Virus record (IMG/VR): IMGVR_UViG_2541047719_000008
DNA: 55,177 nt
Reading direction: 5' to 3' (one strand)
Source of the DNA: a virus
Taxonomy: Duplodnaviria > Heunggongvirae > Uroviricota > Caudoviricetes
This document shows, in pieces, positions 2,828-49,161 of the stretch. A program made the translations under genes and the position numbers. The notes below the pieces were generated by a model. The model was not told the origin of the DNA. It was given only the letters and a program-made list of their open reading frames with translations, and did no database searches. Numbering within the stretch: position 1 is the first letter of the stretch; each line of letters opens with the position of its first letter.

Positions 2828-3652
2828 TCAGGCGGTGAAAGTACCAATAAAGGTTTCTACTTTGCTGTCTTTGAATTTCTCAACAAGCAGATCACGAAAT
2901 TCGTTAGCCATATCTTCCTGCACCGCTTCCAGCTGAATAATGCGCAGAACCAGTACAGGACGATCGCCAGTGATAATGCTGAGGCGTAATTTAAACGGAC
3001 GTTCTTTCAGACCTTCAAACGGAACGCATTTAAATTCAAATGCCACTGGCATAATGTCTTTGGTCTTCGCTTCGACAGATTCCATCAGGGAGCGTTTGCC
3101 GCTGAAGTCATTATCTTCAAAATCAGCGGTCTGGTTTGCTTCAATCGTGATTTTACGGACTGCCGCAGCCGCTTTTGTTGCCTGAATGGTGTCACCATTA
3201 GCATCAAAGCCCACAAGGTAGTCGGCCCAGTCTTCAATCCATTCTGCCAGTGACTTCTGGGAGTTACGCTCGCCGTTAACAGACAACAGGGCAGAGAACG
3301 GTGCTGTCTTTTTCAGTTTGAGAGTGGCGGTGTTATCTGCGTGACCTGGTTCATCAATAGTACCCAGGTTAAGTACACTGACGGCACGCATATTATCAGC
3401 ATCGATAAAGCAGCGGGTGCCTTCATCTGCAAGATCTTTAGAATAACGGGTAAAGTCATCGATGCTGGCAGTGGAAAGCGCACCACGGAAACGGAAGCGA
3501 TTTAAATTAAATTTTTCCAGATCATGAATGCGGAAATTCTCAGGCAATGCCACAGCATCGGCACCAATATTACTGATAATTTCATTAACACCCTGAGCAG
3601 AAATAAGGGCATGGATTTGATTAATTGCGGTTGCGTCTAAGTTCTGAGACAT
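2828..3652 (-). CDS. DUF2303 (YfdQ-like) prophage protein
   Basis: 274-aa ORF recognised from memory as resembling the YfdQ family of CPS-53; strong RBS-like spacing upstream. Confidence 0.5.
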
Positions 3653-25324: not shown

Positions 25325-25672
25325 ATGGTGACGAAAACCATCACTGAACAGCGTGCGGAAGTACGTATTTTTGCCGGTAATGATCCGGCTCATACCGCCA
25401 CAGGCAGCAGCGGGATTTCCTCGCCAACACCGGCACTGACGCCCCTGATGCTGGATGAAGCCACCGGGAAACTGGTGGTCTGGGACGGACAGAAAGCCGG
25501 TAGTGCGGTTGGCATACTGGTACTGCCGCTTGAAGGTACAGAGACGGCGCTGACGTATTACAAGTCGGGAACCTTTGCGACGGAGGCAATCCACTGGCCT
25601 GAAAGTGTGGATGAACACAAAAAGGCCAACGCCTTTGCCGGCAGTGCCCTGAGTCACGCGGCGCTGCCGTAA
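25325..25672 (+). CDS. D: Head decoration protein D
   Basis: 115 aa with DPAHTAT ... TPLMLD ... VVWDG ... YKSGTF ... HWPESV, matching lambda gpD. Confidence 0.85.
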   Translation: MVTKTITEQRAEVRIFAGNDPAHTATGSSGISSPTPALTPLMLDEATGKLVVWDGQKAGSAVGILVLPLEGTETALTYYKSGTFATEAIHWPESVDEHKKANAFAGSALSHAALP

Positions 25673-25729
25673 CACGTTATCAGGCCACCGCGGTGGCCTG
25701 ACTGATTTCTGAATGAAAGGAACTGATTT

Positions 25730-25975
25730 ATGGGATTGTTTACGACCCGCCAGTTACTCGGTTATACCGAACAAAAAGTTAAATTTCGTGCGCTGTTTCT
25801 GGAGCTGTTTTTCCGCCGTACGGTGAATTTCCATACCGAAGAGGTGATGCTGGACAAAATTACCGGAAAAACGCCGGTGGCGGCCTATGTCTCCCCGGTT
25901 GTTGAAGGAAAAGTGCTGCGTCATCGTGGTGGTGAAACCCGCGTGTTGCGTCCGGGCTACGTCAAGCCGAAGCAC
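25730..25975 (+). pseudogene. E: Major capsid protein E, N-terminal fragment (interrupted by the inserted element)
   Basis: First ~82 codons match lambda gpE up to RPGYVKPKH, then the frame runs into unrelated sequence and stops at 26005. Confidence 0.85.
25965..25975. other. Left junction core repeat (attL-like) AGCCGAAGCAC
   Basis: 11-bp sequence at the point where E homology ends; an imperfect copy AGCCGAAACAC lies where E homology resumes (36698-36708). Confidence 0.55.
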
Positions 25976-26137
25976 TTAGCATGGCTTTCTGAGGCTTTCG
26001 TGTAGTTGCTGGTTTTTACACTTAATCTTTTGATAATAAAGAGTAAGTTTATCTGGCGCTTTCACTGGATTTTCCTCGTTATCTGTGTGTTGCAATCATC
26101 TCTGTATTGCAGCTTGTATTGCTTTTTGGGGCTAAAA

Positions 26138-27373
26138 ATGGCTGGCGAGAACAAACTGAGCGACAAAGCACTTAAAGGATATCTGGGGAAACCTAGAGAA
26201 AAGCAGATCACCATTGCTGATGGAAAGGGGCTTTCTATTCGTGTGAGTACCAAGGGGGCTGTGAGCTTTGTTTTCTTCTACAGGTTAGCAGGTGGCCGGG
26301 CTGCTCCGGTCTGGCTAACGTTGGGTAAATATCCTGATATGTCACTCAAACAGGCAAGGGAAAAGCGCGACGAGTGCCGTGGTTGGTTGGCTGACAAACG
26401 TGATCCGCGTATTCAGATTAAGATTCAGGCTGAAGAACGCTTAAAGCCGGTCACAGTGGAGGATGCACTAAATTACTGGTATGAAAATTACTGTAAGGTG
26501 CGTCGTAAAACTCATGCTGTAACGCTTGGCAGATTTCGAAAGCATATCTTTCCCTATATCGGTCATTTGCCCGTAAATGACACTCACCTATATGAATGGC
26601 TGGACTGTTTTGACCGAATTAAACGTAATGCACCAGTTATGGCGGCGTATGTTTTTTCTGACACTAAATTAGCTCTTCGTTTTTGTCGGGTACGCCAGTA
26701 CGCGACGTGTGATGCTTTAAAGGATTTGCGCATGAGTGATGTGGGGCAGATTGCAGGTAAGCGGGATCGGGTTCTGGATGAAGCCGAACTGGGCCAGCTC
26801 TGGAAGGCAATTTTTGTCGAGCCTGATTTAAAACTAATGTCTGAATACACGCGAAAAATGTTTGTGCTTTGTACAGTATTTGGATGTCGAATGAGTGAAG
26901 CCCGATTATCAGAATGGAGCGAATGGGATCTAGAAAGTTGGGTTTGGACTGTACCGAAAGATCACTCAAAAACTGGTGTTGAAATTGTCAGGCCAGTACC
27001 TGAAATTCTACGGCAGTGGGTAACGGATGTTCACGAAGAGACAAAACATACTGGTTATGTGCTGGGAAGTCTGCGAATTAGAGAAAGCGTAAGCAAGATT
27101 GGGGGGAAAATCGGTAAACGTTTGGGCCATGAAAAACAATGGTCACTACACGACCTTAGAAGAACGCTATCTACTCATCTAAGTGATCTCGGTGTTGAAT
27201 TTTATGTAGTAGAACAACTGTTAGGCCATGCGCTACCTGGCGTGGCAGGTGTTTACAACCGGAGTAAGTTTATGGCTAAAAAACTGGATGCTCTGGAACT
27301 CTGGACTACATATCTCAATAGCATCGCAGCTGCTGATTCAAAAGTGACAATCCTCAAACAAAAGGCTGGTTAG
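26138..27373 (+). CDS. int: Tyrosine integrase, P4-type
   Basis: N-terminal LSDKALKGYLGKP...GKGLSIRVS (P4-integrase N-domain) and C-terminal catalytic HDLRRT ... GH...Y motifs; start taken at MAGENK rather than the upstream ORF start at 26006. Confidence 0.85.
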   Translation: MAGENKLSDKALKGYLGKPREKQITIADGKGLSIRVSTKGAVSFVFFYRLAGGRAAPVWLTLGKYPDMSLKQAREKRDECRGWLADKRDPRIQIKIQAEERLKPVTVEDALNYWYENYCKVRRKTHAVTLGRFRKHIFPYIGHLPVNDTHLYEWLDCFDRIKRNAPVMAAYVFSDTKLALRFCRVRQYATCDALKDLRMSDVGQIAGKRDRVLDEAELGQLWKAIFVEPDLKLMSEYTRKMFVLCTVFGCRMSEARLSEWSEWDLESWVWTVPKDHSKTGVEIVRPVPEILRQWVTDVHEETKHTGYVLGSLRIRESVSKIGGKIGKRLGHEKQWSLHDLRRTLSTHLSDLGVEFYVVEQLLGHALPGVAGVYNRSKFMAKKLDALELWTTYLNSIAAADSKVTILKQKAG

Positions 27374-27374
27374 C

Positions 27375-27596
27375 ATGAAAAAAATGGCAATTGTTGATAA
27401 AAAGGGGCTGGAGTACATTCCTAACATTGACCGAATGATCCGTGAGAAAGAATGTCGGGAGCTAACCACTCTTGCGAACAGCACACGCTGGAAGCTTGAA
27501 AAGGAGGGGAAATTCCCCAAGCGAATCAAAATCGGATCTACGGCGGTGGCTTATAGACTCTCTGAGATTCAAGCTTGGATAAGAGGTGAATGGTAA
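27375..27596 (+). CDS. alpA: AlpA-family transcriptional regulator/excisionase
   Basis: 73 aa; REKECRELTTLANSTRWKLEKEGKFPKRIKIG...AYRLSEIQAWI matches the AlpA pattern; directly follows int. Confidence 0.75.
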   Translation: MKKMAIVDKKGLEYIPNIDRMIREKECRELTTLANSTRWKLEKEGKFPKRIKIGSTAVAYRLSEIQAWIRGEW

Positions 27597-27622
27597 GTTA
27601 GGGAGGTATTCCTCCCTATATC

Positions 27623-28306
27623 TTACAGGAAATTTTTTAAATCAGGGTTTTTTCCAAATGCGCTCTTATAATATACTGTTGCAATCTCGTTAAAAATAGT
27701 TTTTATATCATCGGTAACCACTATTGTTGCTACGCGCAAATCTTTTTGATATTCATTTAAATCTGGAGGGGTATAGTCCAATAGCGTTGATTTATCCAAG
27801 ATTAAATGTTCTAACATGGCATAGCGCTCAATCAATGTTTTATAAAAATGATATTGATTTTCACTGTTAGCATGTGCACAGTTTATTGCAAGTAAATACG
27901 TTATTTCATTATCTAGATGTGCACGGACAAGGCTTGTATAGGTTTTTTTACGATCTAGATCAAAGGGATGGTATCCAGCATTTTCATCAATGAACTTCAA
28001 TAGATGATATAATATTCTGAAGTAGCTTCCAAAAACAGCATCATGATTGTGCATCAGTGTATTAGTGTCTTTTAAAGAAACCAATCCATTCATCATTTTA
28101 TTAATTAACTCTGAGTAATTTGATTTTTTTCTAAGATCATTTAGAGCATTGTTATGTTGAGATAACATGAGAGAAAATGTTGATTCAAAAGATGATTGCT
28201 TTTTAGCAATTAATGCAACTAACACTGCTGTGCAAGTCCCGAGTGCCACGAAGAAATTTATAATGTTTGATGCAGTGAATACAGCATCGTCAGGAGTTGG
28301 AGTCAT
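27623..28306 (-). CDS. AT-rich cargo gene: hypothetical membrane-anchored protein, candidate abortive-infection/defence factor
   Basis: 227 aa on the opposite strand to int-alpA; one N-terminal hydrophobic helix; markedly AT-rich compared with its neighbours; no confident family assignment. Confidence 0.5.
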   Translation of the reverse strand: MTPTPDDAVFTASNIINFFVALGTCTAVLVALIAKKQSSFESTFSLMLSQHNNALNDLRKKSNYSELINKMMNGLVSLKDTNTLMHNHDAVFGSYFRILYHLLKFIDENAGYHPFDLDRKKTYTSLVRAHLDNEITYLLAINCAHANSENQYHFYKTLIERYAMLEHLILDKSTLLDYTPPDLNEYQKDLRVATIVVTDDIKTIFNEIATVYYKSAFGKNPDLKNFL

Positions 28307-28338
28307 TTGAATATCCTATTCAATAAAAATTAAAAAAA

Positions 28339-28533
28339 TTAGCCTTTAGGTTCTATACCTTTACGGCGAAGCTCAGCACGAACTAATTCTTTAATCCAAT
28401 TGGCCAAGCTCATTCCTTCCTGAGCTGCTGATTCAGCCATCTGTTCTTTGAGTTCAGGATTGATTCGGATCTGAAACGCAGGGGCTTTGCCGGCTCCTTT
28501 TGGCTGCTTATCTCTTTGAATTGTAGTTGACAT
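28339..28533 (-). CDS. Ribbon-helix-helix (CopG/Arc-type) DNA-binding protein
   Basis: 64 aa; APAFQIRINPELKEQMAESAAQEGMSLANWIKELVRAEL is a classic RHH beta-strand plus two helices. Confidence 0.65.
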   Translation of the reverse strand: MSTTIQRDKQPKGAGKAPAFQIRINPELKEQMAESAAQEGMSLANWIKELVRAELRRKGIEPKG

Positions 28534-28578
28534 GTGTGTACCTATTGCTTAGCATCAGTGTTGAATAGGTACACACAT
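28532..28578. promoter_or_regulatory. Perfect 15-bp inverted repeat (candidate operator) at the RHH gene start
   Basis: ATGTGTGTACCTATT ... 17 bp ... AATAGGTACACACAT, overlapping the RHH start codon, in the divergent intergenic region. Confidence 0.5.
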
Positions 28579-28669
28579 TAACATGATGTTATACCTATAA
28601 ACAACGCCCTAGGGTGCTCGCAACACACCTAGGGCGTCTAACCACAAACCGTTAACTGGAGTAACGACT

Positions 28670-29035
28670 ATGGCTGGAACACAGCATACCCAAACTCACC
28701 CTAAATTTATATACATCTTTCTGGCGCTACATCGCGATCGCATAGCAGATGGAGCAACTACGGTACATGTAGCCGCTGACACGCTGGTTGATGCGCGCAA
28801 GATGGTTAAGGAGATGGGCTATACTGCGGCTTTCTGGAAAGGGCGGGAAGAAAACACGCTGTTTATTCAGAAATGTGAAAACAATTTCATCTGGCGTTTT
28901 ATCGCCCTGAGTACGGCACAACCGCGCGTGATTACCATCGAGGCCACCAGCGAACAGGAAGCCCGCCAGCAATCCCCAACTGGCTGCGTGATGATATTCG
29001 CCGCCCGTATTCGTCAGGAGGTGTGCCATGAATGA
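28670..29035 (+). CDS. Hypothetical protein (first gene of the rightward operon of the element)
   Basis: 121-aa ORF; no motif recognised; true start may be internal. Confidence 0.4.
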   Translation: MAGTQHTQTHPKFIYIFLALHRDRIADGATTVHVAADTLVDARKMVKEMGYTAAFWKGREENTLFIQKCENNFIWRFIALSTAQPRVITIEATSEQEARQQSPTGCVMIFAARIRQEVCHE

Positions 29036-29252
29036 TCTTTATTTTAAAGTGCTGACACATGCTGAAAACGCGCTCGTTTGTGGCAAAAATATGCGAGAAA
29101 TCTTATCAACCTGGCTTGATGGGACAACAAATGCGGAACACGATGAACGGGATGCTAATTTAGCTGGAGCGTTAATTACGTTACTTGATCCTGTCATCAA
29201 AGAGCTGGATGAAGCTATAAAAATACACGACCAGAGCTATACCGGAGAATAA
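29028..29252 (+). CDS. Hypothetical protein
   Basis: 74-aa ORF overlapping the upstream stop. Confidence 0.4.
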   Translation: MNDLYFKVLTHAENALVCGKNMREILSTWLDGTTNAEHDERDANLAGALITLLDPVIKELDEAIKIHDQSYTGE

Positions 29253-29255
29253 AAA

Positions 29256-29543
29256 ATGAAAAATAAATTTTCTGGCTTTATTGCCAGCGGTCAAACTCAT
29301 TCAAAAATCAGCCTTGGGGATATTTTCAAAGATAGCTATGGCTATCGGGTAAAGATTATTTCGGTTGATGATCGTCGTGTCTCTTATTTGCGTGATGGTT
29401 ATGATTTTGAATGTGTTATGCCGCGTCAGCAGTTCGAAAGAGATTTCATTCTGGTAAAAAATTGCAAGACAGATAATCAGAGGCGTGCCGCAGGCTATAT
29501 CCGTAAAATTCGGGCAATGTTAGTTGCCGGAGGTAACAAATGA
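29256..29543 (+). CDS. Hypothetical protein
   Basis: 95-aa ORF immediately preceding and overlapping the primase start. Confidence 0.4.
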   Translation: MKNKFSGFIASGQTHSKISLGDIFKDSYGYRVKIISVDDRRVSYLRDGYDFECVMPRQQFERDFILVKNCKTDNQRRAAGYIRKIRAMLVAGGNK

Positions 29544-31360
29544 AACGTGCTCCGAACTTAAAATACCAACCGCGCGACAAAATGACGGAAGTCATCATTT
29601 TTGCTGGCAGTGATGCCTGGAGCCATGCAAAAGAATGGAATGAATGGGCAGGTAAGCATATTGCAGCAGATGATACACCACCAGTCATTCTGGGTACGGA
29701 ACAACTGGAAAACCTGGATGATATGCAAATTATCGATGAAGGCCGTCATTATGTGCGTGTTTATCGTGCCGGAAAGATTGCAGAGAAAAGTCTGACGAAG
29801 GTTGCGACATTACTTGCTATTGCAGGCGTAAAGGAAGCACGTTGTTACCGTAGCTTTGTTGATCGAGAGCCTGAAGACTGGACTCCGCGCCTTGTCGGCC
29901 TAAAAGCTGAAGCGGAGCATGGGGAAAGTCTGGTGATTGAACTGCCAGTGAAGAAGGCAGAGCGCAAAAATGACGAGCGTGCTTCATCTTTGGCGTTGAA
30001 TCAGATGGGGGCCAGCCAGCGCGGTGAAGTTCTCCTTGCACATTACGGCGGCGAACTGGCAATCAATGCCGACTCTGACACCGTTCATCATTACAACGGC
30101 GTTGTATGGGAGCCGGTTCAGGATAAAGAGTTACAGCGTGCTATGGCGCAGATTTTCATTGATGCGGAGATCAGCTATTCGCAGAACGCCATTAAATCGG
30201 CGGTAGATACCATGAAGTTAAGTTTGCCTGTAATGGGGAATACAGCCCGTAACCTGATTGGATTCAGTAACGGGGTATTTGATACCAGAACTGGTAATTT
30301 TCGGGAGCATAACAAAAACGACTGGTTGTTAATTGCCAGTGAATTACCTTTCAGCCCACCAGCAGAGGGGGAAACGCTGGCAACACATGCGCCGAATTTC
30401 TGGAAGTGGTTGCGCCGTTCGGTGGCTGAGAATGACCGCAAGGCAGATCGCGTACTGGCGGCATTATTCATGGTGCTGGCGAACCGGTACGACTGGCAGT
30501 TATTCATTGAGGTAACAGGGCCGGGGGGAAGTGGTAAAAGTGTGATGGCGGAGATTTGCACCATGCTGGCGGGTAAGGCGAATACAGTATCAGCAAGCAT
30601 GAAGGCGCTGGAAGATGCAAGGGAACGTGCGTTAGTGGTTGGCTTTTCGCTGATTATCATGCCGGATATGACCCGCTACGCTGGTGATGGGGCAGGGATT
30701 AAGGCCATTACAGGCGGTGACAAGGTGGCAATTGACCCGAAACACAAAGCCCCCTATTCAACGCGTATTCCGGCAGTAGTGCTGGCGGTTAACAATAACG
30801 CCATGTCATTCAGTGACCGCAGCGGGGGGATCTCACGTCGTCGGGTGATATTCAATTTTTCGGAAGTTGTACCGGAGAACGAACGCGATTCGATGCTGGC
30901 GGAAAAAATAGAAGGTGAGCTGGCGGTAGTGATTCGCCATCTGCTTACACGGTTTGCTGATCAGGACGAAGCCAGACGCCTGTTATATGAGCAGCAGAAA
31001 TCTGAAGAAGCACTGGCGATAAAGCGAGAGGGGGATTCGCTGGTGGACTTCTGCGGCTATCTCATGGCATCGGTAATGTGTGATGGCCTGTTAGTGGGTA
31101 ATGCTGAAATTGTGCCATTCAGCCCACGCAGGTATCTCTATCATGCCTATCTGGCTTATATGAGGGCACATGGGTTTGGTAAACCTGTAACACTGACGCG
31201 CTTCGGTAAAGATATGCCGGGGGCAATGGCGGAATATGGCAGGGAGTATATGAAACGGAAAACGAAGCACGGTTTGCGTTCAAACGTGACACTGACGGAG
31301 GAATCAGAAGACTGGATGCCATCATGTGTATCGGTCACTAATGACGATAGCAAAAATTAA
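29540..31360 (+). CDS. Primase/helicase replication initiator (P4-alpha / PICI Pri-Rep type)
   Basis: 606 aa with Walker A GPGGSGKS in the C-terminal half (D5/P4-primase-type NTPase); followed directly by an iteron array. Confidence 0.8.
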   Translation: MKRAPNLKYQPRDKMTEVIIFAGSDAWSHAKEWNEWAGKHIAADDTPPVILGTEQLENLDDMQIIDEGRHYVRVYRAGKIAEKSLTKVATLLAIAGVKEARCYRSFVDREPEDWTPRLVGLKAEAEHGESLVIELPVKKAERKNDERASSLALNQMGASQRGEVLLAHYGGELAINADSDTVHHYNGVVWEPVQDKELQRAMAQIFIDAEISYSQNAIKSAVDTMKLSLPVMGNTARNLIGFSNGVFDTRTGNFREHNKNDWLLIASELPFSPPAEGETLATHAPNFWKWLRRSVAENDRKADRVLAALFMVLANRYDWQLFIEVTGPGGSGKSVMAEICTMLAGKANTVSASMKALEDARERALVVGFSLIIMPDMTRYAGDGAGIKAITGGDKVAIDPKHKAPYSTRIPAVVLAVNNNAMSFSDRSGGISRRRVIFNFSEVVPENERDSMLAEKIEGELAVVIRHLLTRFADQDEARRLLYEQQKSEEALAIKREGDSLVDFCGYLMASVMCDGLLVGNAEIVPFSPRRYLYHAYLAYMRAHGFGKPVTLTRFGKDMPGAMAEYGREYMKRKTKHGLRSNVTLTEESEDWMPSCVSVTNDDSKN

Positions 31361-31373
31361 ACTTATGGAATAA

Positions 31374-31596
31374 CTGTTCACCACTGTTCACCCTGTCATA
31401 AATATCTTTTATATCAGTATATTATAGGGTGAACAGTTATTTATGAACTGTTCACCAAACTATTCACTGTTCACCTTTTTGATTGTTTATTGAGCTTCAA
31501 GGGTGAACAGTGGTGAACAGTTGGTGAATAGTTTTTGTGAAACTGTTCACCCATTAACATTATGAATTAAAAGAGAAAATATCAAAAGGTGAACAG
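31374..31596. repeat. Iteron array, candidate replication origin of the element
   Basis: At least nine copies of the 9-mer CTGTTCACC/GGTGAACAG in both orientations (e.g. 31374, 31384, 31428, 31448, 31467, 31502, 31512, 31543, 31588) in AT-rich non-coding DNA. Confidence 0.7.
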
Positions 31597-31647
31597 GTGA
31601 AGGGTTAAAACGCAAAAATTTTAATTTACTGCTGTGAGATAAAGCCT

Positions 31648-31893
31648 ATGACAGCGAAGCACACAAAAAAATCACAATCGCACGCCCTTGATTTGACGGA
31701 ACACTGGTTAAGGGTGTCGATAAAAATCATCGACCGCAACGCCGGGGAAGGATACGCGAAAGCACATCCCGAACTGATTAGCGCATTCATGACAACGGCG
31801 GCTGCAAACTTTGCCACTCTGACCGAACGGGAGATTGCTGAAGCGGAGGAAGTGGCAACAATCAATATTAAGTCCGGAGAGCAGGCAGCATGA
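31648..31893 (+). CDS. Hypothetical protein
   Basis: 81-aa ORF between the origin and ssb. Confidence 0.4.
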   Translation: MTAKHTKKSQSHALDLTEHWLRVSIKIIDRNAGEGYAKAHPELISAFMTTAAANFATLTEREIAEAEEVATINIKSGEQAA

Positions 31894-32339
31894 CGGCGCA
31901 AATATCAGTTTACGGGCGGTTGGTGGACGACCCGCAGACAAAACAGACCAGCAAGGGCACCCCCATGACGCTGGCGCGTATGGCGGTATCACTGCCCTGC
32001 AGTCAGTCGGATGACGGTCAGGCGACGATGTGGTTATCTGTCCTGGCGTTTGGCAGACAAGCCGACGCGCTGGCAAAGCATCACAAAGGCGAACTCCTGA
32101 GCGTGGCGGGTAATATGCAGGTGAGCCAGTGGACTGGACAGAACGGTGAAACGCGGCAGGGCTGGCAGGTTATCGCAGACAGCGTAATCAGTGCGCGAAC
32201 GGTGCGACCGGGCGGCAAAAAAGGTCAACAGGGTCAGGCTACTGACGCACTGAACAGAGCAAAACAACAGGCAGATCAGCAAGGAAGCCATCCACCAGTG
32301 GGAGATAATGAACAATGGGGAGATGATATTCCGTTTTAA
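31890..32339 (+). CDS. ssb: Single-stranded DNA-binding protein
   Basis: OB-fold-like N-terminus, Gly/Gln-rich linker and the canonical acidic tip DDIPF at the C-terminus. Confidence 0.75.
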   Translation: MTAQISVYGRLVDDPQTKQTSKGTPMTLARMAVSLPCSQSDDGQATMWLSVLAFGRQADALAKHHKGELLSVAGNMQVSQWTGQNGETRQGWQVIADSVISARTVRPGGKKGQQGQATDALNRAKQQADQQGSHPPVGDNEQWGDDIPF

Positions 32340-32550
32340 ATATTGCCAATAAAAAAGGCCGGAAAAAAATAAATTTTCCGGCATGCTACATAAATCCCGA
32401 CCAAAGGGAGTGAAGATATTAACACTAATTATCCGCGCTGAAGTTGTTATCCCAAAACTTTATACAACATTGCACTCGGTTGCATGTATTCGCATGACAA
32501 ATATCGGTGATAGCATATATCCACAATTATTTTTAATGAATGCAAAGAGG

Positions 32551-33597
32551 ATGCGTATGGTTGATTTATATTCGCCTACCCAGCTTGTACAGGTGGTTAA
32601 TGCTGTAGATGTACAAAAACAACTAAATGCGTTGTTTACCAGTTTGTTTTTTACTCGCTCGGTAATGTTTGAATCGCGCGATATTATTCTTGATACAATC
32701 GACGATCCAAATATCCCAATTGCAGCGTTTTGTTCTCCTATGGTGGGTAGTAAAGTTTCACGTGACGAAGGGTACGAATCAAAAACAATTCGTCCAGGCT
32801 ATATGAAGCCGAAAAGCAGCATTGATCCAAATAAGTTAGCTGTGCGCCCTGTTGGTGTATCACCTGAGCAATACAATGCTTTTGGAGCGCGTAATATTAA
32901 AGTTAAACAGGCGATTGTAAATCAGGCTAAAGCTATTCGTGCACGTATTGAATGGCTTGCCGTTCAGGCAATCACAACGGGGAAAAATATCATTGAGGGC
33001 GATGGTATTGAACGTTATGAGCTGGACTGGAATATTAAACCACAAAATATCATCACTCAGTCTGGCGGTGCTGAGTGGTCAGGTAAGGATAAAGAAACTT
33101 TTGATCCAAATGATGATATTGAGAGCTACGCAGAATTTAGTGAGGGCGTCACTAATATTATCATTATGGGCGGTAATGTATGGAAGAAATACCGTTCATT
33201 CAGAGCGATAAAAGAGGCTCTGGATACCCGTCGTGGTTCTAATTCCGAACTGGAAACGGCCCTTAAAGACCTTGGTGATTCGGTGAGTTTTAAAGGGTAT
33301 ATGGGCGATGTTGCGATTGTTGTTTACAGCGGGCGTTATACCGACGAGGACGGAACAGAAAAACATTTCCTTGATCCTGATTTGATGGTGCTTGGCAATA
33401 CGGCTCTTCAGGGGATTGTCGCCTATGGCGGTATTCAGGATCCGGAGCTAATCCGAATGGGGCTGACTAAAGCCGAACTTGCACCGAAAAACTATATTGT
33501 GCCTGGTGATCCGGCTATTGAATATGTGCAGACACATTCAGCACCACAGCCAATACCGGCCCGCATCAATCGTTTTGTTACCGTTCGCATTGGCTAA
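32551..33597 (+). CDS. Major capsid protein, lambda E-like paralog encoded by the inserted element
   Basis: Full-length homology to the split prophage E gene (RPGYMKPKS vs RPGYVKPKH; LDTRRGSNSELETALKDLG; YSGRYTDEDG; GDPAIEY). Start at MRMVDLY with AAAGAGG RBS; the tool ORF starts at 32383. Confidence 0.8.
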   Translation: MRMVDLYSPTQLVQVVNAVDVQKQLNALFTSLFFTRSVMFESRDIILDTIDDPNIPIAAFCSPMVGSKVSRDEGYESKTIRPGYMKPKSSIDPNKLAVRPVGVSPEQYNAFGARNIKVKQAIVNQAKAIRARIEWLAVQAITTGKNIIEGDGIERYELDWNIKPQNIITQSGGAEWSGKDKETFDPNDDIESYAEFSEGVTNIIIMGGNVWKKYRSFRAIKEALDTRRGSNSELETALKDLGDSVSFKGYMGDVAIVVYSGRYTDEDGTEKHFLDPDLMVLGNTALQGIVAYGGIQDPELIRMGLTKAELAPKNYIVPGDPAIEYVQTHSAPQPIPARINRFVTVRIG

Positions 33598-33606
33598 GGG
33601 GGAGCA

Positions 33607-33948
33607 ATGGCTACTCATTACACTGAACTCATGGCTGGCACTGAAGCACTGGTGACTACGCTGGGGATATTTTCAGCTAATAAAGGGGTAATTCCTGCAT
33701 TTACGCCACTGATGCAGGAAGATGCAACAGGTGCACTGGTAGTATGGGATGGTTCGAGCGTAGGTAAAGCGGTTTATGTTTCCGCTGTACAAATCGACAC
33801 CGCGAAAAAAACACAGGCTCAGGTCTATAAGACAGGTGTCTTAAATGTTGATGCTCTGAACTGGCCTGAGTCTGTTAAAGAACTGTCAGTAAAGGTTGCA
33901 GCGTTTGTTGGCTCAGGTATTTCTGTTCAGCCGCTGGCTCGTGTGTAA
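33607..33948 (+). CDS. Head decoration protein, lambda D-like paralog encoded by the inserted element
   Basis: 113 aa sharing TPLM, VVWDG, YK(T/S)G, NWPESV and AF(V/A)GS blocks with the prophage D protein. Confidence 0.75.
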   Translation: MATHYTELMAGTEALVTTLGIFSANKGVIPAFTPLMQEDATGALVVWDGSSVGKAVYVSAVQIDTAKKTQAQVYKTGVLNVDALNWPESVKELSVKVAAFVGSGISVQPLARV

Positions 33949-33959
33949 AGGGGGATACA

Positions 33960-34343
33960 ATGCAGAATGATTACAATGACCTTAAGCCAATTGCCGAAAT
34001 GATGTACCCGAATCAAGCTGTAGAGGAATTAAAAGCTATCGCTGACAAAATGTGTTTAAGCGAGCGCCTTGTTGATATGAATCAGGTGATGGAAATTACA
34101 ACCCTGAGTCGTCGTACACTGCTAAACCTTGAGGCTAGTGGAGAGTTCCCGGAGCGTGTGCAGGTTACGGAAGGGCGTAAGGCCTGGTATTTAAGTGAAG
34201 TGATCGACTGGATAAATAATATTCCTCGCGCTTCTGAATATTGCCGCGTACCTGTCCCAAAAAAGCCAGATGCGGCGCTATGCCTCAAGATTGAGCGTGT
34301 ACGCCGCAATGCACGGGATGGTCGCTATAAGCTGATTGGTTGA
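33960..34343 (+). CDS. AlpA-like HTH DNA-binding protein
   Basis: MEITTLSRRTLLNLEASGEFPERVQVTEGRKAWYLSEVIDWI matches the AlpA-type HTH; precedes the element's cos site. Confidence 0.5.
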   Translation: MQNDYNDLKPIAEMMYPNQAVEELKAIADKMCLSERLVDMNQVMEITTLSRRTLLNLEASGEFPERVQVTEGRKAWYLSEVIDWINNIPRASEYCRVPVPKKPDAALCLKIERVRRNARDGRYKLIG

Positions 34344-34535: not shown

Positions 34536-35087
34536 GTGGTATCAATGAAATTACACCTGATGAACAAAAAAAACATGGCAAAAAGTTGCCGTGTAAGCGC
34601 CACTGCGTTCGATAAGTGGGGAGTGATTCCCGTCGAGCGTAAGGGCCGTGAGGCGTTCTATGATGTTGCCAGTGTAATAGATAATCGGGTTAACAATGCA
34701 ATCAGCCAGATTACAAACGAAACGGGCGATATTGATGACGATGAACTTTTACGCGTCAGGATCAGATTACTGACAGCACAGGCAGAGGCGCAGGAGCTTA
34801 AAAACGAGCGCGAACGCGGCGACGTTATTGATACAGAGTTTTGTATGTATGTTCTTTCCAAACTGGCGAGTCAGATTTCATCTATCATGGACAGCCTGCC
34901 GCTTACCATGCAAAGGCGCTTCCCACAGATGACTCCGGCTATGCTGGATGGACTTAAAAAGGAAGTGGCTAAAGCCTGTAATGCCAGTGCCGGCGTTGCT
35001 GACAACCTCCCACAGATACTGGCTGATTATCTGATGGAAAGTACAGGAAACGTACCGGATAAGTTGCAGCTGAATAAGGATAAGTAA
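34536..35087 (+). CDS. Terminase small subunit, Nu1-like paralog encoded by the inserted element
   Basis: SATAFDKWGVIPVERKGREAFYDV ... YVLSKLASQISSIMDSLPLTMQRRFPQMTP parallels the prophage Nu1 (SVQAFDKWGVPPVERRGREVFYDV ... ALSKLAMALSSTLDSIPLSMQRQFPDLTP). Confidence 0.8.
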   Translation: MVSMKLHLMNKKNMAKSCRVSATAFDKWGVIPVERKGREAFYDVASVIDNRVNNAISQITNETGDIDDDELLRVRIRLLTAQAEAQELKNERERGDVIDTEFCMYVLSKLASQISSIMDSLPLTMQRRFPQMTPAMLDGLKKEVAKACNASAGVADNLPQILADYLMESTGNVPDKLQLNKDK

Positions 35088-36697: not shown

Positions 36698-36708
36698 AGC
36701 CGAAACAC
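36698..36708. other. Right junction core repeat (attR-like) AGCCGAAACAC
   Basis: Imperfect copy of the left junction 11-mer, at the exact point where the E reading frame resumes. Confidence 0.55.
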
Positions 36709-37491
36709 GAATTTAATTACCAGCAGGCGGTTGAGCGCCTTCCTGGTGAAGATCCATCTCAACTGAACGATCCGGCTTACCGCCGTCTGCGTATCATTAC
36801 CGATAACCTCAAACAGGAAGAGCACGCGATTGTCCAGGTGGAAGAAATGCAGGCGGTAAATGCTGTGTTGTATGGCAAATACACCATGGAAGGAGACCAG
36901 TTCGAGAAAATTGAGGTCGATTTTGGCAGGTCGACGAAGAATAACATCACACAGGGTAGCGGTAAGGAATGGTCAAAACAGGATCGTGACACGTTCGATC
37001 CTACACATGATATTGACCTTTACTGCGACCAGGCCAGCGGTCTTGTGAATATTGCCATCATGGACGGTACCGTCTGGCGTCTGCTGAATGGTTTTAAGCT
37101 GTTTCGCGAAAAACTGGATACCCGTCGCGGTTCAAATTCACAACTCGAAACGGCAGTGAAAGATCTGGGCGCAGTGGTGTCCTTCAAGGGGTATTACGGC
37201 GATCTGGCTATTGTTGTGGCGAAAACGTCTTATATAGCAGAAGACGGTATCGAAAAACGTTATCTTCCAGATGGCATGCTGGTCCTGGGGAATACTGCTG
37301 CAGATGGGATCCGTTGTTACGGAGCCATTCAGGATGCGCAGGCGTTTTCCGAAGGTGTGGTGGCTTCTTCCCGTTATCCGAAACACTGGCTGACGGTGGG
37401 GGATCCTGCCCGTGAATTTACCATGACGCAGTCCGCACCGCTGATGGTGTTGCCGGACCCGGATGAGTTTGTGGTGGTACAGGTGAAATAA
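36700..37491 (+). pseudogene. E: Major capsid protein E, C-terminal fragment
   Basis: Frame opens after a TAG at 36697-36699 and reads PKHEFNYQQAVERLPGEDP ... DPAREFTMTQSAPLMVLPDPDEFVVVQVK, matching lambda gpE from about residue 80 to the end. Confidence 0.85.

Positions 37492-45759: not shown

Positions 45760-49161
<3,402 letters not shown>

What the first reader, a model, noticed from the sequence alone, without database searches (positions are those of the whole stretch)
28339..28669. Regulatory switch of the element: RHH protein with a perfect 15-bp inverted repeat at its start, plus CCTAGGG direct repeats in the divergent intergenic region
A ribbon-helix-helix gene on the minus strand is overlapped at its start codon by ATGTGTGTACCTATT-17 bp-AATAGGTACACACAT. 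Further along the intergenic region, CCTAGGGTG and CCTAGGGCG occur as direct repeats ~21 bp apart, just upstream of the first rightward gene. This looks like an autoregulated repressor/operator controlling the divergent promoters, i.e. the point where helper induction would be sensed.
Basis: seen in the sequence. Interest (0 to 1): 0.45.

Follow-up and report, generated by a model that had tools for sequence, protein, structure and literature searches.

The report
Satellite on/off switch: repressor plus antisense RNA

Summary
The sequence features are real. The 15-bp perfect inverted repeat lies at 28532-46 / 28564-78. CCTAGGG occurs twice, at 28608 and 28628.

**The inverted repeat.** In about 80 related loci across Enterobacterales it resolves into two 8-bp boxes.
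- The boxes bracket the -10 of a conserved rightward promoter (TTGACA-17/18-TAnnnT).
- The two boxes change together from locus to locus.
- Box type sorts exactly with the residues of the 64-aa ribbon-helix-helix (RHH) protein that correspond to the base-contacting residues of P22 Arc.
- This supports a repressor/operator controlling the Icd-like-to-primase operon, and probably the RHH gene's own leftward promoter.

**The "direct repeats".** They are the two arms of a hairpin.
- Covariation, 107 G·U pairs on the minus strand against 3 on the plus strand, a U-rich tail, and a position-fixed TAnnnT inside the first codons of the Icd-like gene (67 of 69 loci) all point the same way.
- Together they indicate a leftward ~80-nt cis-antisense RNA covering the Shine-Dalgarno sequence and start codon of the Icd-like gene.
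- No Rfam family matches it.
- The same leftward transcript probably also feeds the RHH gene and its defence cargo.

"Helper sensing happens here" is not supported. All of this is comparative inference; nothing is shown experimentally.

The parts
28339..28533 (-). Ribbon-helix-helix (RHH) repressor gene, 64 aa, Arc-like. RefSeq annotates it as YlcI/YnfO family or 'HicB family antitoxin'.
   Evidence: Profile matches: Pfam HicB 27.4 bits (cut-off 21), RHH_1 16.8 bits (below cut-off 20.5); NCBIfam YlcI_YnfO_N 37 bits (cut-off 30); PHROG Arc-like repressor. Best match among solved structures by sequence is P22 Arc, E=0.02. The AlphaFold2 model has strand 20-22, helix 26-38 and helix 43-57, with pLDDT above 90 in the core. 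The top Foldseek hits are Arc.
28527..28555 (+). P_R, the rightward sigma-70 promoter of the Icd-like-to-primase operon: TTGACA (28527-32), 17 nt, TAGCAT (28550-55). Predicted transcription start about 28562-64. The -35 hexamer overlaps the RHH start codon.
   Evidence: 10 of 12 consensus match; it is the only promoter-like site called in the intergenic region. TTGACA is present in 74 of 77 distinct homologous loci, and a 17/18-nt spacer followed by TAnnnT in 68 of 77.
28532..28546 (.). Left operator (left arm of the inverted repeat). The core box is GTGTGTAC, 28534-28541. It lies in the P_R spacer. Its CCTAT flank is the complement of the RHH Shine-Dalgarno sequence (AGG).
28564..28578 (.). 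Right operator (right arm of the inverted repeat). The core box is GTACACAC, 28569-28576. It covers about +1 to +15 of P_R and the -10/start region of P_L.
   Evidence: The two boxes match each other 8/8 in most loci yet differ between groups of loci. Some groups have the boxes in direct rather than inverted orientation.
28575..28583 (-). P_L, the candidate RHH promoter: extended -10 TGtTAATGT on the minus strand. Predicted start about 28568.
   Evidence: TGnTAnnnT on the minus strand occurs at a fixed offset (42-44 nt from the RHH start) in 56 of 77 distinct loci. The consensus scan did not call it. The -35 is weak.
28596..28677 (-). Predicted ~80-nt cis-antisense RNA, which may also be the 5' leader of the leftward operon. 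It has SL1 (28675 to 28640; loop CUCCAGU is complementary to the Icd-like Shine-Dalgarno sequence), SL2 (28638 to 28603) and a U-rich tail UGUUUAU.
   Evidence: Folding: minus strand -36.3 kcal/mol, z -4.9; plus strand -27.3 kcal/mol. The minus strand is the more stable in all 68 homologues. RNAalifold finds compensatory changes in 14 of 21 pairs. 96.6% of cells are paired, with 0 of 500 shuffles reaching that value. G·U pairs: 107 on the minus strand, 3 on the plus strand. The covariance model gives one hit in the window, 28591-28677 on the minus strand, 78.9 bits.
28604..28637 (-). It is a probable intrinsic terminator or attenuator on the minus strand.
   Evidence: T content of the 9 nt 3' of the stem: mean 4.3 on the minus strand, 1.3 on the plus strand. 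The simple terminator scan missed it; I attribute this to the bulge and 14-nt apparent loop, which I did not check.
28683..28688 (-). P_as -10 hexamer, TATGCT on the minus strand, lying inside codons 5-7 of the Icd-like ORF. Predicted start about 28676.
   Evidence: TAnnnT on the minus strand sits at exactly +19 to +14 of the ORF in 67 of 69 distinct loci, although the encoded residues differ. No other offset within +/-60 nt exceeds 26%. The segment is retained in cassettes where the Icd-like ORF itself is destroyed.
28670..29035 (+). Icd-like gene, the first cistron of the rightward replication operon. Its Shine-Dalgarno sequence GGAG is at 28658-61. The downstream ORFs overlap or abut one another through to the primase (29540-31360).
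   Evidence: NCBIfam phage_ICD_like 81.7 bits. ORF coordinates show overlapping stop and start codons at 29028/29035 and 29540/29543.
27623..28306 (-). putAbiC-like defence cargo, 32 nt downstream of the RHH gene on the same strand. It is probably co-transcribed with the RHH gene.
   Evidence: Pfam putAbiC, E=2.8e-16. Weak PADLOC matches to AbiC and AbiP. In other loci this position holds TIR, SIR2 with ParA-like, DUF3644/PDC-S19 or HEPN genes, or nothing.

Best explanation
The region is the early-control switch of a Gram-negative phage satellite (a helper-embedded PICI). It works through two superimposed locks.

**Lock 1, protein.** The 64-aa Arc-like RHH protein binds two 8-bp boxes, GTGTGTAC and GTACACAC, whose starts are 35 bp apart.
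- One box lies in the spacer of the rightward promoter P_R. The other covers its start site.
- Binding shuts off the Icd-like -> orf74 -> DUF4222 -> primase operon.
- Because the right box also overlaps the leftward extended -10 promoter P_L, the RHH gene would limit its own transcription as well.

**Lock 2, RNA.** A promoter inside the first codons of the Icd-like gene fires leftward.
- It makes an ~80-nt RNA with two stem-loops.
- SL1 carries the anti-Shine-Dalgarno sequence in its loop.
- SL2, the 'CCTAGGG' hairpin, plus a U-rich tail acts as a terminator or attenuator.
- The RNA is perfectly complementary to the Shine-Dalgarno sequence and AUG of the Icd-like mRNA. It would block translation of the first cistron, and through translational coupling or polarity keep the primase off.
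- Read-through past SL2, together with P_L, supplies the RHH protein and the defence cargo (AbiC-like here).

P_R and P_as are convergent, with start sites about 114 bp apart. Strong rightward transcription would therefore interfere with the antisense promoter and flip the switch.

**Shown by computation:** the sequence features, their conservation and co-variation, the RHH fold, and the strand asymmetry of the RNA structure.

**Inferred:** binding, repression, the transcription start sites, termination, the antisense action, and how induction overrides the switch.
For: **Promoter.** P_R scores 10/12 in the window. TTGACA is present in 74 of 77 loci, and a TAnnnT -10 at a 17/18-nt spacer in 68 of 77.

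**Operator.**
- Two boxes per locus change in concert. Box type partitions without exception by the residues at the Arc Gln9/Asn11-equivalent positions:
  - xFQ(I/V)R -> GT(G/A)(T/C)GTAC
  - F(N/S)VR -> GTAT(A/G)GAC
  - PFHMR -> GTGTACAC
  - QFKMR -> GnGGCCAC
  - HFKMR -> GGGGCCCC
  - QFRMR -> GTGGTCAC
- L026 and L063 proteins are 59/63 identical. They differ at the Gln9-equivalent position (H/Q) and have different boxes at both sites.
- In several groups the boxes are direct repeats. This excludes a hairpin role and fits protein binding.

**Arc-like fold.**

**RHH is a core gene, not cargo-linked.** It is present with many different cargos and with none.

**RNA.**
- Compensatory changes are already visible in four sequences.
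- 14 of 21 pairs co-vary. 96.6% of cells are paired against 80% in shuffles. Slid registers drop to 34-49%.
- G·U pairs: 107 on the minus strand, 3 on the plus strand; cells paired 96.6% against 82.1%.
- The minus strand folds better in all 68 loci.
- U-rich tail on the minus strand.
- P_as -10 at a fixed position in 67 of 69 loci.
- Sequences not used in the seed alignment hit the covariance model at 55-85 bits, on the RHH strand in every hit at E below 0.01.
- In phage mEp460 and a P2-like Yersinia phage, a leftward cassette holds: the first ~45 nt of the Icd-like gene (which ends in an early stop codon), the RNA, a truncated RHH gene, and PD-T7-1. This is as expected if P_as is a working leftward promoter.
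Against: - No transcript, binding or reporter data exist for any part.
- The -35 elements of P_as and P_L are poor (my reading of the sequence), and the consensus scan did not call either promoter.
- The U tract after SL2 is modest in the window (5 of 8). In 7 of the 34 aligned sequences it has only 1-2 T in the 9 nt after SL2; from the sequences these appear to be mainly the Pectobacterium loci. SL2 may therefore be a leaky terminator or only a structural element.
- 21 of 77 loci (the GAGGCCAC group) lack the P_L extended -10.
- Box and beta-strand are only about 60 bp apart, so part of their association is co-inheritance.
- The box spacing (34-35 bp) is much wider than in the Arc operator, so the binding geometry is unknown.
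Confidence: 0.6

Rival explanations
1. The minus-strand element is only the promoter and structured 5' leader (attenuator) of the leftward RHH/defence-cargo operon. Its complementarity to the Icd-like ribosome-binding site is a by-product and has no regulatory role.
For: In the mEp460, Yersinia-phage and Qin-like cassettes the Icd-like ORF ends in an early stop codon. The element is nevertheless kept directly upstream of PD-T7-1 on the same strand. The U tract is weak in several aligned sequences.
Against: - SL1 places the anti-Shine-Dalgarno sequence in its loop.
- The stem that holds the Shine-Dalgarno sequence in a loop is maintained by compensatory changes (helix 2: 4 of 5 pairs).
- The predicted 5' end is fixed at codons 2-3 of the target in every lineage.
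- This geometry is typical of translation-blocking antisense RNAs. A plain leader would not need it.
Confidence: 0.17
2. The RHH protein is a HicB-type antitoxin or local autoregulator of the adjacent defence gene (AbiC-like). It only controls its own operon and is not part of satellite control.
For: Pfam HicB match. RefSeq names it 'HicB family antitoxin'. It sits at the head of a variable defence slot. A satellite survey lists HicB among toxin-antitoxin modules and accessory genes (PMC13612085).
Against: - The protein has only 64 aa. The HicB match covers residues 20-50, which coincide with the RHH core. No HicA gene is annotated next to it.
- It is conserved with unrelated cargos and with no cargo at all.
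- Its left box lies between the -35 and -10 of the promoter that faces the other way. The TTGACA of that promoter overlaps the RHH start codon in 74 of 77 loci.
Confidence: 0.1
3. One reading: the CCTAGGG copies are direct-repeat binding sites for a protein (for example AlpA or a helper factor), and this is where helper induction is sensed.
For: The repeats exist and lie in the 5' region of the first rightward gene. AlpA-type proteins are DNA-binding regulators (PMC6092414).
Against: - The repeated heptamer is not conserved: the homologous positions read CCTAGG, CCTATA, CCCCGG, CCCGCA, CTCCGG, CTCTGG and others.
- The complementarity of the two arms is conserved.
- The G·U asymmetry shows selection on an RNA from the minus strand.
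Confidence: 0.05
4. The 15-bp inverted repeat acts as an RNA hairpin in the RHH mRNA, sequestering its Shine-Dalgarno sequence and AUG, rather than as a protein operator.
For: The left arm contains the RHH Shine-Dalgarno complement and 2 nt of the start codon. A transcript starting upstream of 28578 would contain both arms.
Against: In about half of the loci the boxes are direct repeats or imperfect as inverted repeats ('no IR>=8'), yet the two-box layout is kept. The predicted P_L start (~28568) leaves only about 5 nt of the right arm in the mRNA.
Confidence: 0.03

Closest known systems
Phage P22 immI region (Mnt and Arc RHH repressors, Pant/Pmnt divergent promoters, sar antisense RNA). The P22 details are from my own knowledge.
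   Same: A small RHH repressor has its operator inside a sigma-70 promoter. The repressor gene is divergent from the regulated operon, as mnt is. A short cis-antisense RNA from a convergent promoter covers the ribosome-binding site of a gene in that operon. P22 Arc is the closest solved structure by both sequence and fold.
   Different: - No antirepressor (Ant) gene. The regulated operon starts with an Icd-like gene and leads to a satellite primase.
- One RHH gene instead of two.
- The boxes are about 35 bp apart instead of adjacent half-sites.
- The RNA shows no sequence relation to any Rfam family.
- The host element is a satellite, not a phage.
P1/P7 immI (c4 RNA-icd-ant), P4 CI RNA and N15 CA RNA immunity systems. 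System details are from my own knowledge and from PMC10111431.
   Same: An Icd-like first cistron is placed under RNA-based control, with downstream genes depending on its translation. The setting is temperate elements and satellites of enterobacteria.
   Different: Those RNAs are processed from the same strand as their target transcript and match the Rfam families C4 or isrK. Here neither strand matches either family at E<=1, and the structure is selected on the opposite strand. This is a true cis-antisense RNA with its own promoter.
SymR/SymE and plasmid R1162 antisense RNAs
   Same: A two-hairpin RNA of about 77 nt lies antisense to the Shine-Dalgarno sequence and start codon of its target. 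The only sub-threshold Rfam hits are to these families.
   Different: The scores are far below the gathering thresholds (27.1 against 61, and 26 against 55). There is resemblance of shape only, no homology, and the target is unrelated.
Gram-negative PICI regulation through AlpA (EcCICFT073 model, PMC6092414) and helper-embedded PICIs (11capE type, PMC10111431)
   Same: The element has int, alpA, a P4-type primase, its own capsid, decoration and terS genes, is about 10.7 kb, and is inserted in the lambdoid capsid gene E.
   Different: [quoted passage not shown] Here a divergent RHH gene, its operator and an antisense RNA lie between alpA and the replication genes.

Membership tests
Ribbon-helix-helix (Arc/MetJ/CopG superfamily) DNA-binding repressor | Beta-alpha-alpha fold | tested here: met
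   AlphaFold2 model: strand 20-22, helix 26-38, helix 43-57, core pLDDT above 90. The top Foldseek PDB hits are all RHH proteins, with Arc first (probability 1.00, TM-score 0.84 normalised to the target).
Ribbon-helix-helix (Arc/MetJ/CopG superfamily) DNA-binding repressor | Profile match at a curated threshold | tested here: inconclusive
   Pfam RHH_1 scores 16.8, below its cut-off of 20.5. Pfam HicB (RHH portion) scores 27.4, above 21. NCBIfam YlcI_YnfO_N scores 37, above 30. phmmer against P22 Arc gives E=0.02.
Ribbon-helix-helix (Arc/MetJ/CopG superfamily) DNA-binding repressor | Repeated operator sub-sites at the regulated promoter that track the beta-strand residues | tested here: met
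   There are two 8-bp boxes per locus, and box type partitions by the Arc-9/11-equivalent residues.
Ribbon-helix-helix (Arc/MetJ/CopG superfamily) DNA-binding repressor | Dimer formation and sequence-specific DNA binding | not testable with these tools
   Needs EMSA or footprinting.
HicB antitoxin of a HicAB type II toxin-antitoxin pair | N-terminal HicB toxin-neutralising domain and an adjacent hicA toxin gene | tested here: not met
   The protein has only 64 aa, and the Pfam match covers residues 20-50, the RHH core. The neighbouring genes are a putAbiC-like gene and an Icd-like gene; no HicA gene is annotated.
C4/CI-type immunity RNA (Rfam C4, isrK) | Match to the covariance model; encoded on the same strand as, and upstream of, icd | tested here: not met
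   No C4 or isrK hit at E<=1 on either strand of 25500-33000. The structure is selected on the opposite strand.
SymR antitoxin RNA (RF01809) | Score at or above the gathering threshold | tested here: not met
   27.1 bits against a gathering score of 61.
Cis-encoded antisense RNA that blocks translation initiation | Own promoter on the opposite strand at a conserved position | tested here: met
   TAnnnT at +19 to +14 of the target ORF in 67 of 69 loci. This is a sequence prediction only.
Cis-encoded antisense RNA that blocks translation initiation | Conserved secondary structure specific to the antisense strand, overlapping the target's Shine-Dalgarno sequence and AUG | tested here: met
Cis-encoded antisense RNA that blocks translation initiation | A detectable transcript and an effect on target expression | not testable with these tools
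   Needs Northern blot or dRNA-seq, and reporter fusions.
Intrinsic (Rho-independent) terminator | G+C-rich stem followed by a U tract | tested here: inconclusive
   The stem is strong. The tail UGUUUAUA has 5 U in 8 nt. Across loci the mean is 4.3 T in 9 nt, range 1-8. The simple scan did not call it.
Gram-negative PICI (helper-embedded type) | int + alpA + P4-type primase; size about 10-20 kb; inserted in and co-oriented with a prophage late gene | tested here: met
   The description of the 11capE type is in PMC10111431.

The most novel reading that the evidence does not exclude
The RHH/operator pair and the antisense RNA together are the so-far missing repressor or 'immunity' system of many Gram-negative PICIs. 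The RHH-box variants would define satellite immunity groups. The RNA would be a new, widespread sRNA family; sequence similar to it and the adjoining Icd-like 5' end is found in about 10% of complete E. coli genomes. The leftward promoter-RNA unit would also be a portable expression cassette that carries anti-phage defence genes such as PD-T7-1 into lambdoid and P2-like phages and plasmids.
Probability: 0.35. Interest if true: 0.7.

Novelty: new variant of a known kind. Interest (0 to 1): 0.55.

Why it matters
- **An open question becomes testable.** For Gram-negative PICIs the literature names only an activator (AlpA) and says a global repressor is unclear (PMC6092414). A conserved repressor/operator plus antisense-RNA lock on the replication operon would explain how these satellites stay silent. 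It offers concrete handles: boxes, -10 elements and stems to mutate.
- **A natural specificity series.** The set of box/beta-strand variants could serve for studying RHH-DNA recognition and for building orthogonal repressors.
- **An annotation error.** The RNA is absent from Rfam, and the RHH gene is routinely mis-annotated as a HicB antitoxin.
- **Relevance to defence islands.** The same leftward unit sits at the head of a variable anti-phage defence slot. It may therefore bear on how satellite-borne defence genes are expressed and spread.

Tried and rejected
- **Rfam.** An E-value search of 25500-33000 on both strands gave only sub-threshold symR and R1162 hits, no C4 or isrK hit, and two spurious miRNA hits on the origin iterons. 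A gathering-threshold search of three homologous loci gave only sok.
- **Simple scans.** The promoter scan found only P_R. The terminator scan missed SL2.
- **More operator copies.** None found in the element. The only other near-match, at 46864, lies outside the satellite, and the number of matches is at chance level.
- **E. coli K-12.** The Qin prophage has no copy of the RNA. Other K-12 cryptic prophages were not checked.
- **Literature.** Four full-text searches and five papers opened gave no description of this RHH/operator or RNA. An unnamed entry in an EHEC or UPEC transcriptome catalogue cannot be excluded.
- **Ideas considered and rejected:**
  - The hairpin as a lambda-like nut/boxB site: no terminator context on the plus strand, and the wrong strand asymmetry.
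  - The hairpin as a plus-strand attenuator: no U tract on the plus strand.
  - The inverted repeat as a DNA cruciform or RNA hairpin: direct-repeat variants exist.
Full report
**Context**

The window is an E. coli lambdoid prophage whose major capsid gene is interrupted.
- The N-terminal 84 codons end at about 25975. The rest of the gene resumes at about 36700.
- An AGCCGAA(G/A)CAC core is present at both junctions.
- The ~10.7-kb insert carries, in order: int, alpA, a leftward putAbiC-like gene, a leftward 64-aa gene, then rightward an Icd-like gene, a 74-aa ORF, DUF4222, a P4-type primase and SSB. It also carries its own capsid, decoration, second AlpA-like and terS genes.
- This is the helper-embedded PICI of the '11capE' type that Williams and colleagues described (PMC10111431). 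An identical copy is in E. coli K56-43-un.
- That paper does not discuss the region examined here.

**Observation**

- The 15-nt perfect inverted repeat with a 17-nt gap lies at 28532-46 / 28564-78 and overlaps the start codon of the minus-strand ORF by 2 nt.
- It is one of only two perfect inverted repeats of at least 14 nt (arms within 60 nt) in the 55-kb window.
- CCTAGGGTG (28608) and CCTAGGGCG (28628) exist. They are the inner parts of a second inverted repeat, ACGCCCTAGG / CCTAGGGCGT.

**The protein**

It is a ribbon-helix-helix (RHH) protein.
- Profile matches: Pfam HicB (its RHH portion) above cut-off; RHH_1 just below cut-off; NCBIfam YlcI/YnfO above cut-off; PHROG 'Arc-like repressor'.
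- The best match among solved structures, by both sequence and fold, is P22 Arc.
- The AlphaFold2 model is a clean beta-alpha-alpha.
- It is not a HicB antitoxin. It has only the 64-aa RHH core, and no HicA gene is annotated next to it.

**Comparative set**

A protein search found 57 clusters of 64-aa relatives in Enterobacterales. A genome scan returned 80 loci from Kluyvera, Citrobacter, Erwinia, Xenorhabdus, Yersinia, Pectobacterium, Morganella, Klebsiella, Enterobacter and others. I oriented every upstream region like the window.

**Promoter and operator**

- In the window the only promoter-like site in the intergenic region is rightward: TTGACA (28527-32), 17 nt, TAGCAT (28550-55).
- TTGACA is present in 74 of 77 distinct loci. 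Its last base and the next two form the RHH start codon on the other strand.
- A TAnnnT hexamer follows at 17 or 18 nt in 68 of 77 loci.
- The inverted-repeat arms bracket this -10. The left arm fills the promoter spacer and the right arm covers the start site.

Across loci the conserved unit is not the 15-mer but an 8-bp box present twice, 34-35 bp apart.
- The two boxes of a locus match each other (8/8 in most loci) while differing between groups.
- In some groups they are direct rather than inverted repeats (GAGGCCAC twice, GTGGTCAC twice). This rules out a hairpin function.
- Box type sorts without exception by the residues aligned with Arc Gln9 and Asn11:

| Beta-strand residues | Box |
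|---|---|
| xFQ(I/V)R | GT(G/A)(T/C)GTAC |
| F(N/S)VR | GTAT(A/G)GAC |
| PFHMR | GTGTACAC |
| QFKMR | GnGGCCAC |
| HFKMR | GGGGCCCC |
| QFRMR | GTGGTCAC |

- Two proteins that are 59/63 identical differ at the Gln9-equivalent position (H/Q) and have different boxes at both sites.
- Linkage explains part of this association. The concerted change of two separate boxes is what one expects of an operator.

A leftward extended -10 (TGnTAnnnT; in the window TGtTAATGT, 28583 to 28575) sits at a fixed offset in 56 of 77 loci and overlaps the outer edge of the right box. The same bound protein would therefore affect both divergent promoters.

No further copies of the box occur in the element.

**The 'direct repeats' are an RNA hairpin on the minus strand**

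- Already in four sequences the middle of the stem changes with compensation (CCTAGG, CCTATA, CCCCGG, CCCGCA) while the flanks stay fixed.
- On 34 diverse sequences RNAalifold predicts two stem-loops, with compensatory changes in 14 of 21 pairs.
- 96.6% of cells are paired, against 80% in shuffles and 34-49% in slid registers; 0 of 500 shuffles reach the observed value.
- The pairing is strand-specific. There are 107 G·U pairs when read on the minus strand, against 3 on the plus strand. Pairing is 96.6% on the minus strand and 82.1% on the plus strand.
- The minus strand folds better in all 68 loci, often by 10-20 kcal/mol. In the window it is -36.3 (z -4.9) against -27.3 kcal/mol.
- The stem built from the CCTAGGG arms (SL2) is followed on the minus strand by a U-rich stretch (UGUUUAU in the window; long U runs in Yersinia, Trabulsiella and others). 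On the plus strand it is followed by CUAACCAC.
- The 5' stem-loop (SL1) carries CUCCAGU in its loop, the complement of the Icd-like Shine-Dalgarno sequence. Its stem is kept by compensatory changes: CGTTA/TAACG, CATTA/TAATG, CAACT/AGTTG, GTAA/TTAC.
- Six to seven nt upstream of the 5' end of SL1, inside codons 5-7 of the Icd-like ORF, the minus strand reads TAnnnT in 67 of 69 distinct loci (TATGCT, TAGACT, TAGAAT, TACTAT, TACACT). The encoded residues differ, and no other offset within +/-60 nt exceeds 26%.

Together these define a leftward transcript of about 80 nt (about 28676 to 28597). It is antisense to the Shine-Dalgarno sequence and AUG of the first gene of the replication operon.

- A covariance model built from the alignment finds exactly one copy in the window (28591-28677, minus strand, 78.9 bits).
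- It also finds strong hits in sequences not used to build it, on the RHH strand in every hit at E below 0.01.
- No Rfam family reaches threshold. The only faint hits are to SymR and the R1162 antisense RNA, which share the shape. C4 and isrK do not hit.

**The leftward unit also looks like an expression cassette**

- Downstream of the RHH gene the loci carry a variable slot: AbiC-like here; TIR, SIR2 with ParA-like, DUF3644/PDC-S19, HEPN or DUF5677 elsewhere; or nothing, with alpA directly adjacent.
- A cassette of the same composition is found in four places: phage mEp460, a P2-like Yersinia phage, a Qin-like prophage, and a plasmid upstream of BREX.
- In the cassette read base by base (mEp460), and by context in the Yersinia-phage and Qin-like copies, it consists of the first ~45 nt of the Icd-like gene (ending in an early stop codon), the RNA, a truncated RHH C-terminus, and PD-T7-1, all leftward.
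- Keeping a dead 5' fragment of the Icd-like gene makes sense if it contains the promoter.
- SL2 is therefore probably leaky. The leftward transcript probably serves both as antisense RNA and as the leader of the RHH/cargo operon.

**Mechanism proposed** (inferred, not shown)

- *At rest:* the RHH protein sits on both boxes and blocks P_R. The antisense RNA pairs with any escaping Icd-like mRNA and blocks its translation. The next ORFs overlap or abut (29028/29035 and 29540/29543), so the primase stays off through coupling or polarity.
- *At induction:* rightward transcription would collide with the convergent antisense promoter about 114 bp away and out-titrate the RNA. That transcription could come from AlpA action, or from helper late transcription reading in through the interrupted capsid gene. 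The latter is my inference from the co-oriented, cis-regulatory arrangement described in PMC10111431. Nothing here shows that the helper signal is sensed at the operator itself.

**Comparison with known systems**

- The logic is closest to P22 immI: RHH repressors on Pant, a divergent mnt gene, and a convergent sar antisense RNA.
- It also resembles the Icd-first immunity operons of P1, P4 and N15.
- It differs in four ways: there is no antirepressor gene; the RNA is a true opposite-strand antisense RNA unrelated to C4/CI; the boxes are three helical turns apart; and the host element is a satellite for which no repressor had been assigned (PMC6092414).
- A recent satellite survey lists Icd and HicB/YlcI as accessory genes or toxin-antitoxin modules (PMC13612085).

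**Verdict**

- The region is a new variant of a known kind of switch, with a probably undescribed sRNA family.
- Everything rests on comparative sequence evidence.

Noticed in passing
window 25730-26005 and ~36698-37470: The lambdoid major capsid gene E is split by the ~10.7-kb satellite. An AGCCGAA(G/A)CAC core lies at both junctions (25965-75 and 36698-708). The satellite carries its own full-length capsid gene (about 32557-33597), decoration gene (33607-33948) and terS (34536-35087). This matches the published helper-embedded PICI '11capE' type (PMC10111431).
   Followed up: partly
window 31369-31557: There is a dense cluster of inverted and direct copies of ACTGTTCACC / GGTGAACAGT just downstream of the primase gene. 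It is probably the satellite's replication-origin iterons. It also produced spurious plant/animal miRNA hits in Rfam.
   Followed up: no
window 33960-34343 (+): A second, longer AlpA/excisionase-like gene (127 aa; PHROG 2790, E=3e-49) lies between the satellite's decoration gene and terS, in addition to alpA at 27375-27596.
   Followed up: no
window 28670-29035 (+): The Icd-like protein here is 121 aa against 65 aa in a related PICI (L004). It appears to contain a degenerate N-terminal duplicate of the Icd-like domain: PKFIYIFLAL...VHVAADTLVDARK compared with NNFIWRFIAL...ITIEATSEQEARQ.
   Followed up: no
L086 1039-2620 (phage mEp460), L087 (Yersinia phage vB_YpM_46), L002 (E. coli Qin-like prophage): The same leftward cassette sits in a lambdoid phage, a P2-like phage and a cryptic prophage. 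In mEp460, the copy I read, it consists of the Icd-like 5' stub, the antisense RNA, a truncated RHH C-terminus, and the 449-aa defence gene PD-T7-1. The defence gene seems to have been carried out of a satellite together with its promoter-leader.
   Followed up: partly
L003 3990-4073 (E. coli plasmid p65_MLI106-3): A copy of the RNA (83 bits) lies upstream of a small ORF, a WYL-domain gene and a BREX operon on a plasmid. A different 59-aa gene sits where the RHH gene would be.
   Followed up: no
L014 (Xenorhabdus vietnamensis) about 3231-3500: About 100 nt of unrelated sequence is inserted between the operator/P_L region and the RNA. The RNA itself is intact (77 bits).
   Followed up: no
window 27623-28306 (-): The AbiC-like cargo has a hydrophobic N-terminal segment (FFVALGTCTAVLVALIA). 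In otherwise ~98% identical satellites in other E. coli strains it is replaced by a TIR-domain gene or by three hypothetical genes. This marks a defence-gene exchange hotspot between alpA and the RHH gene.
   Followed up: partly
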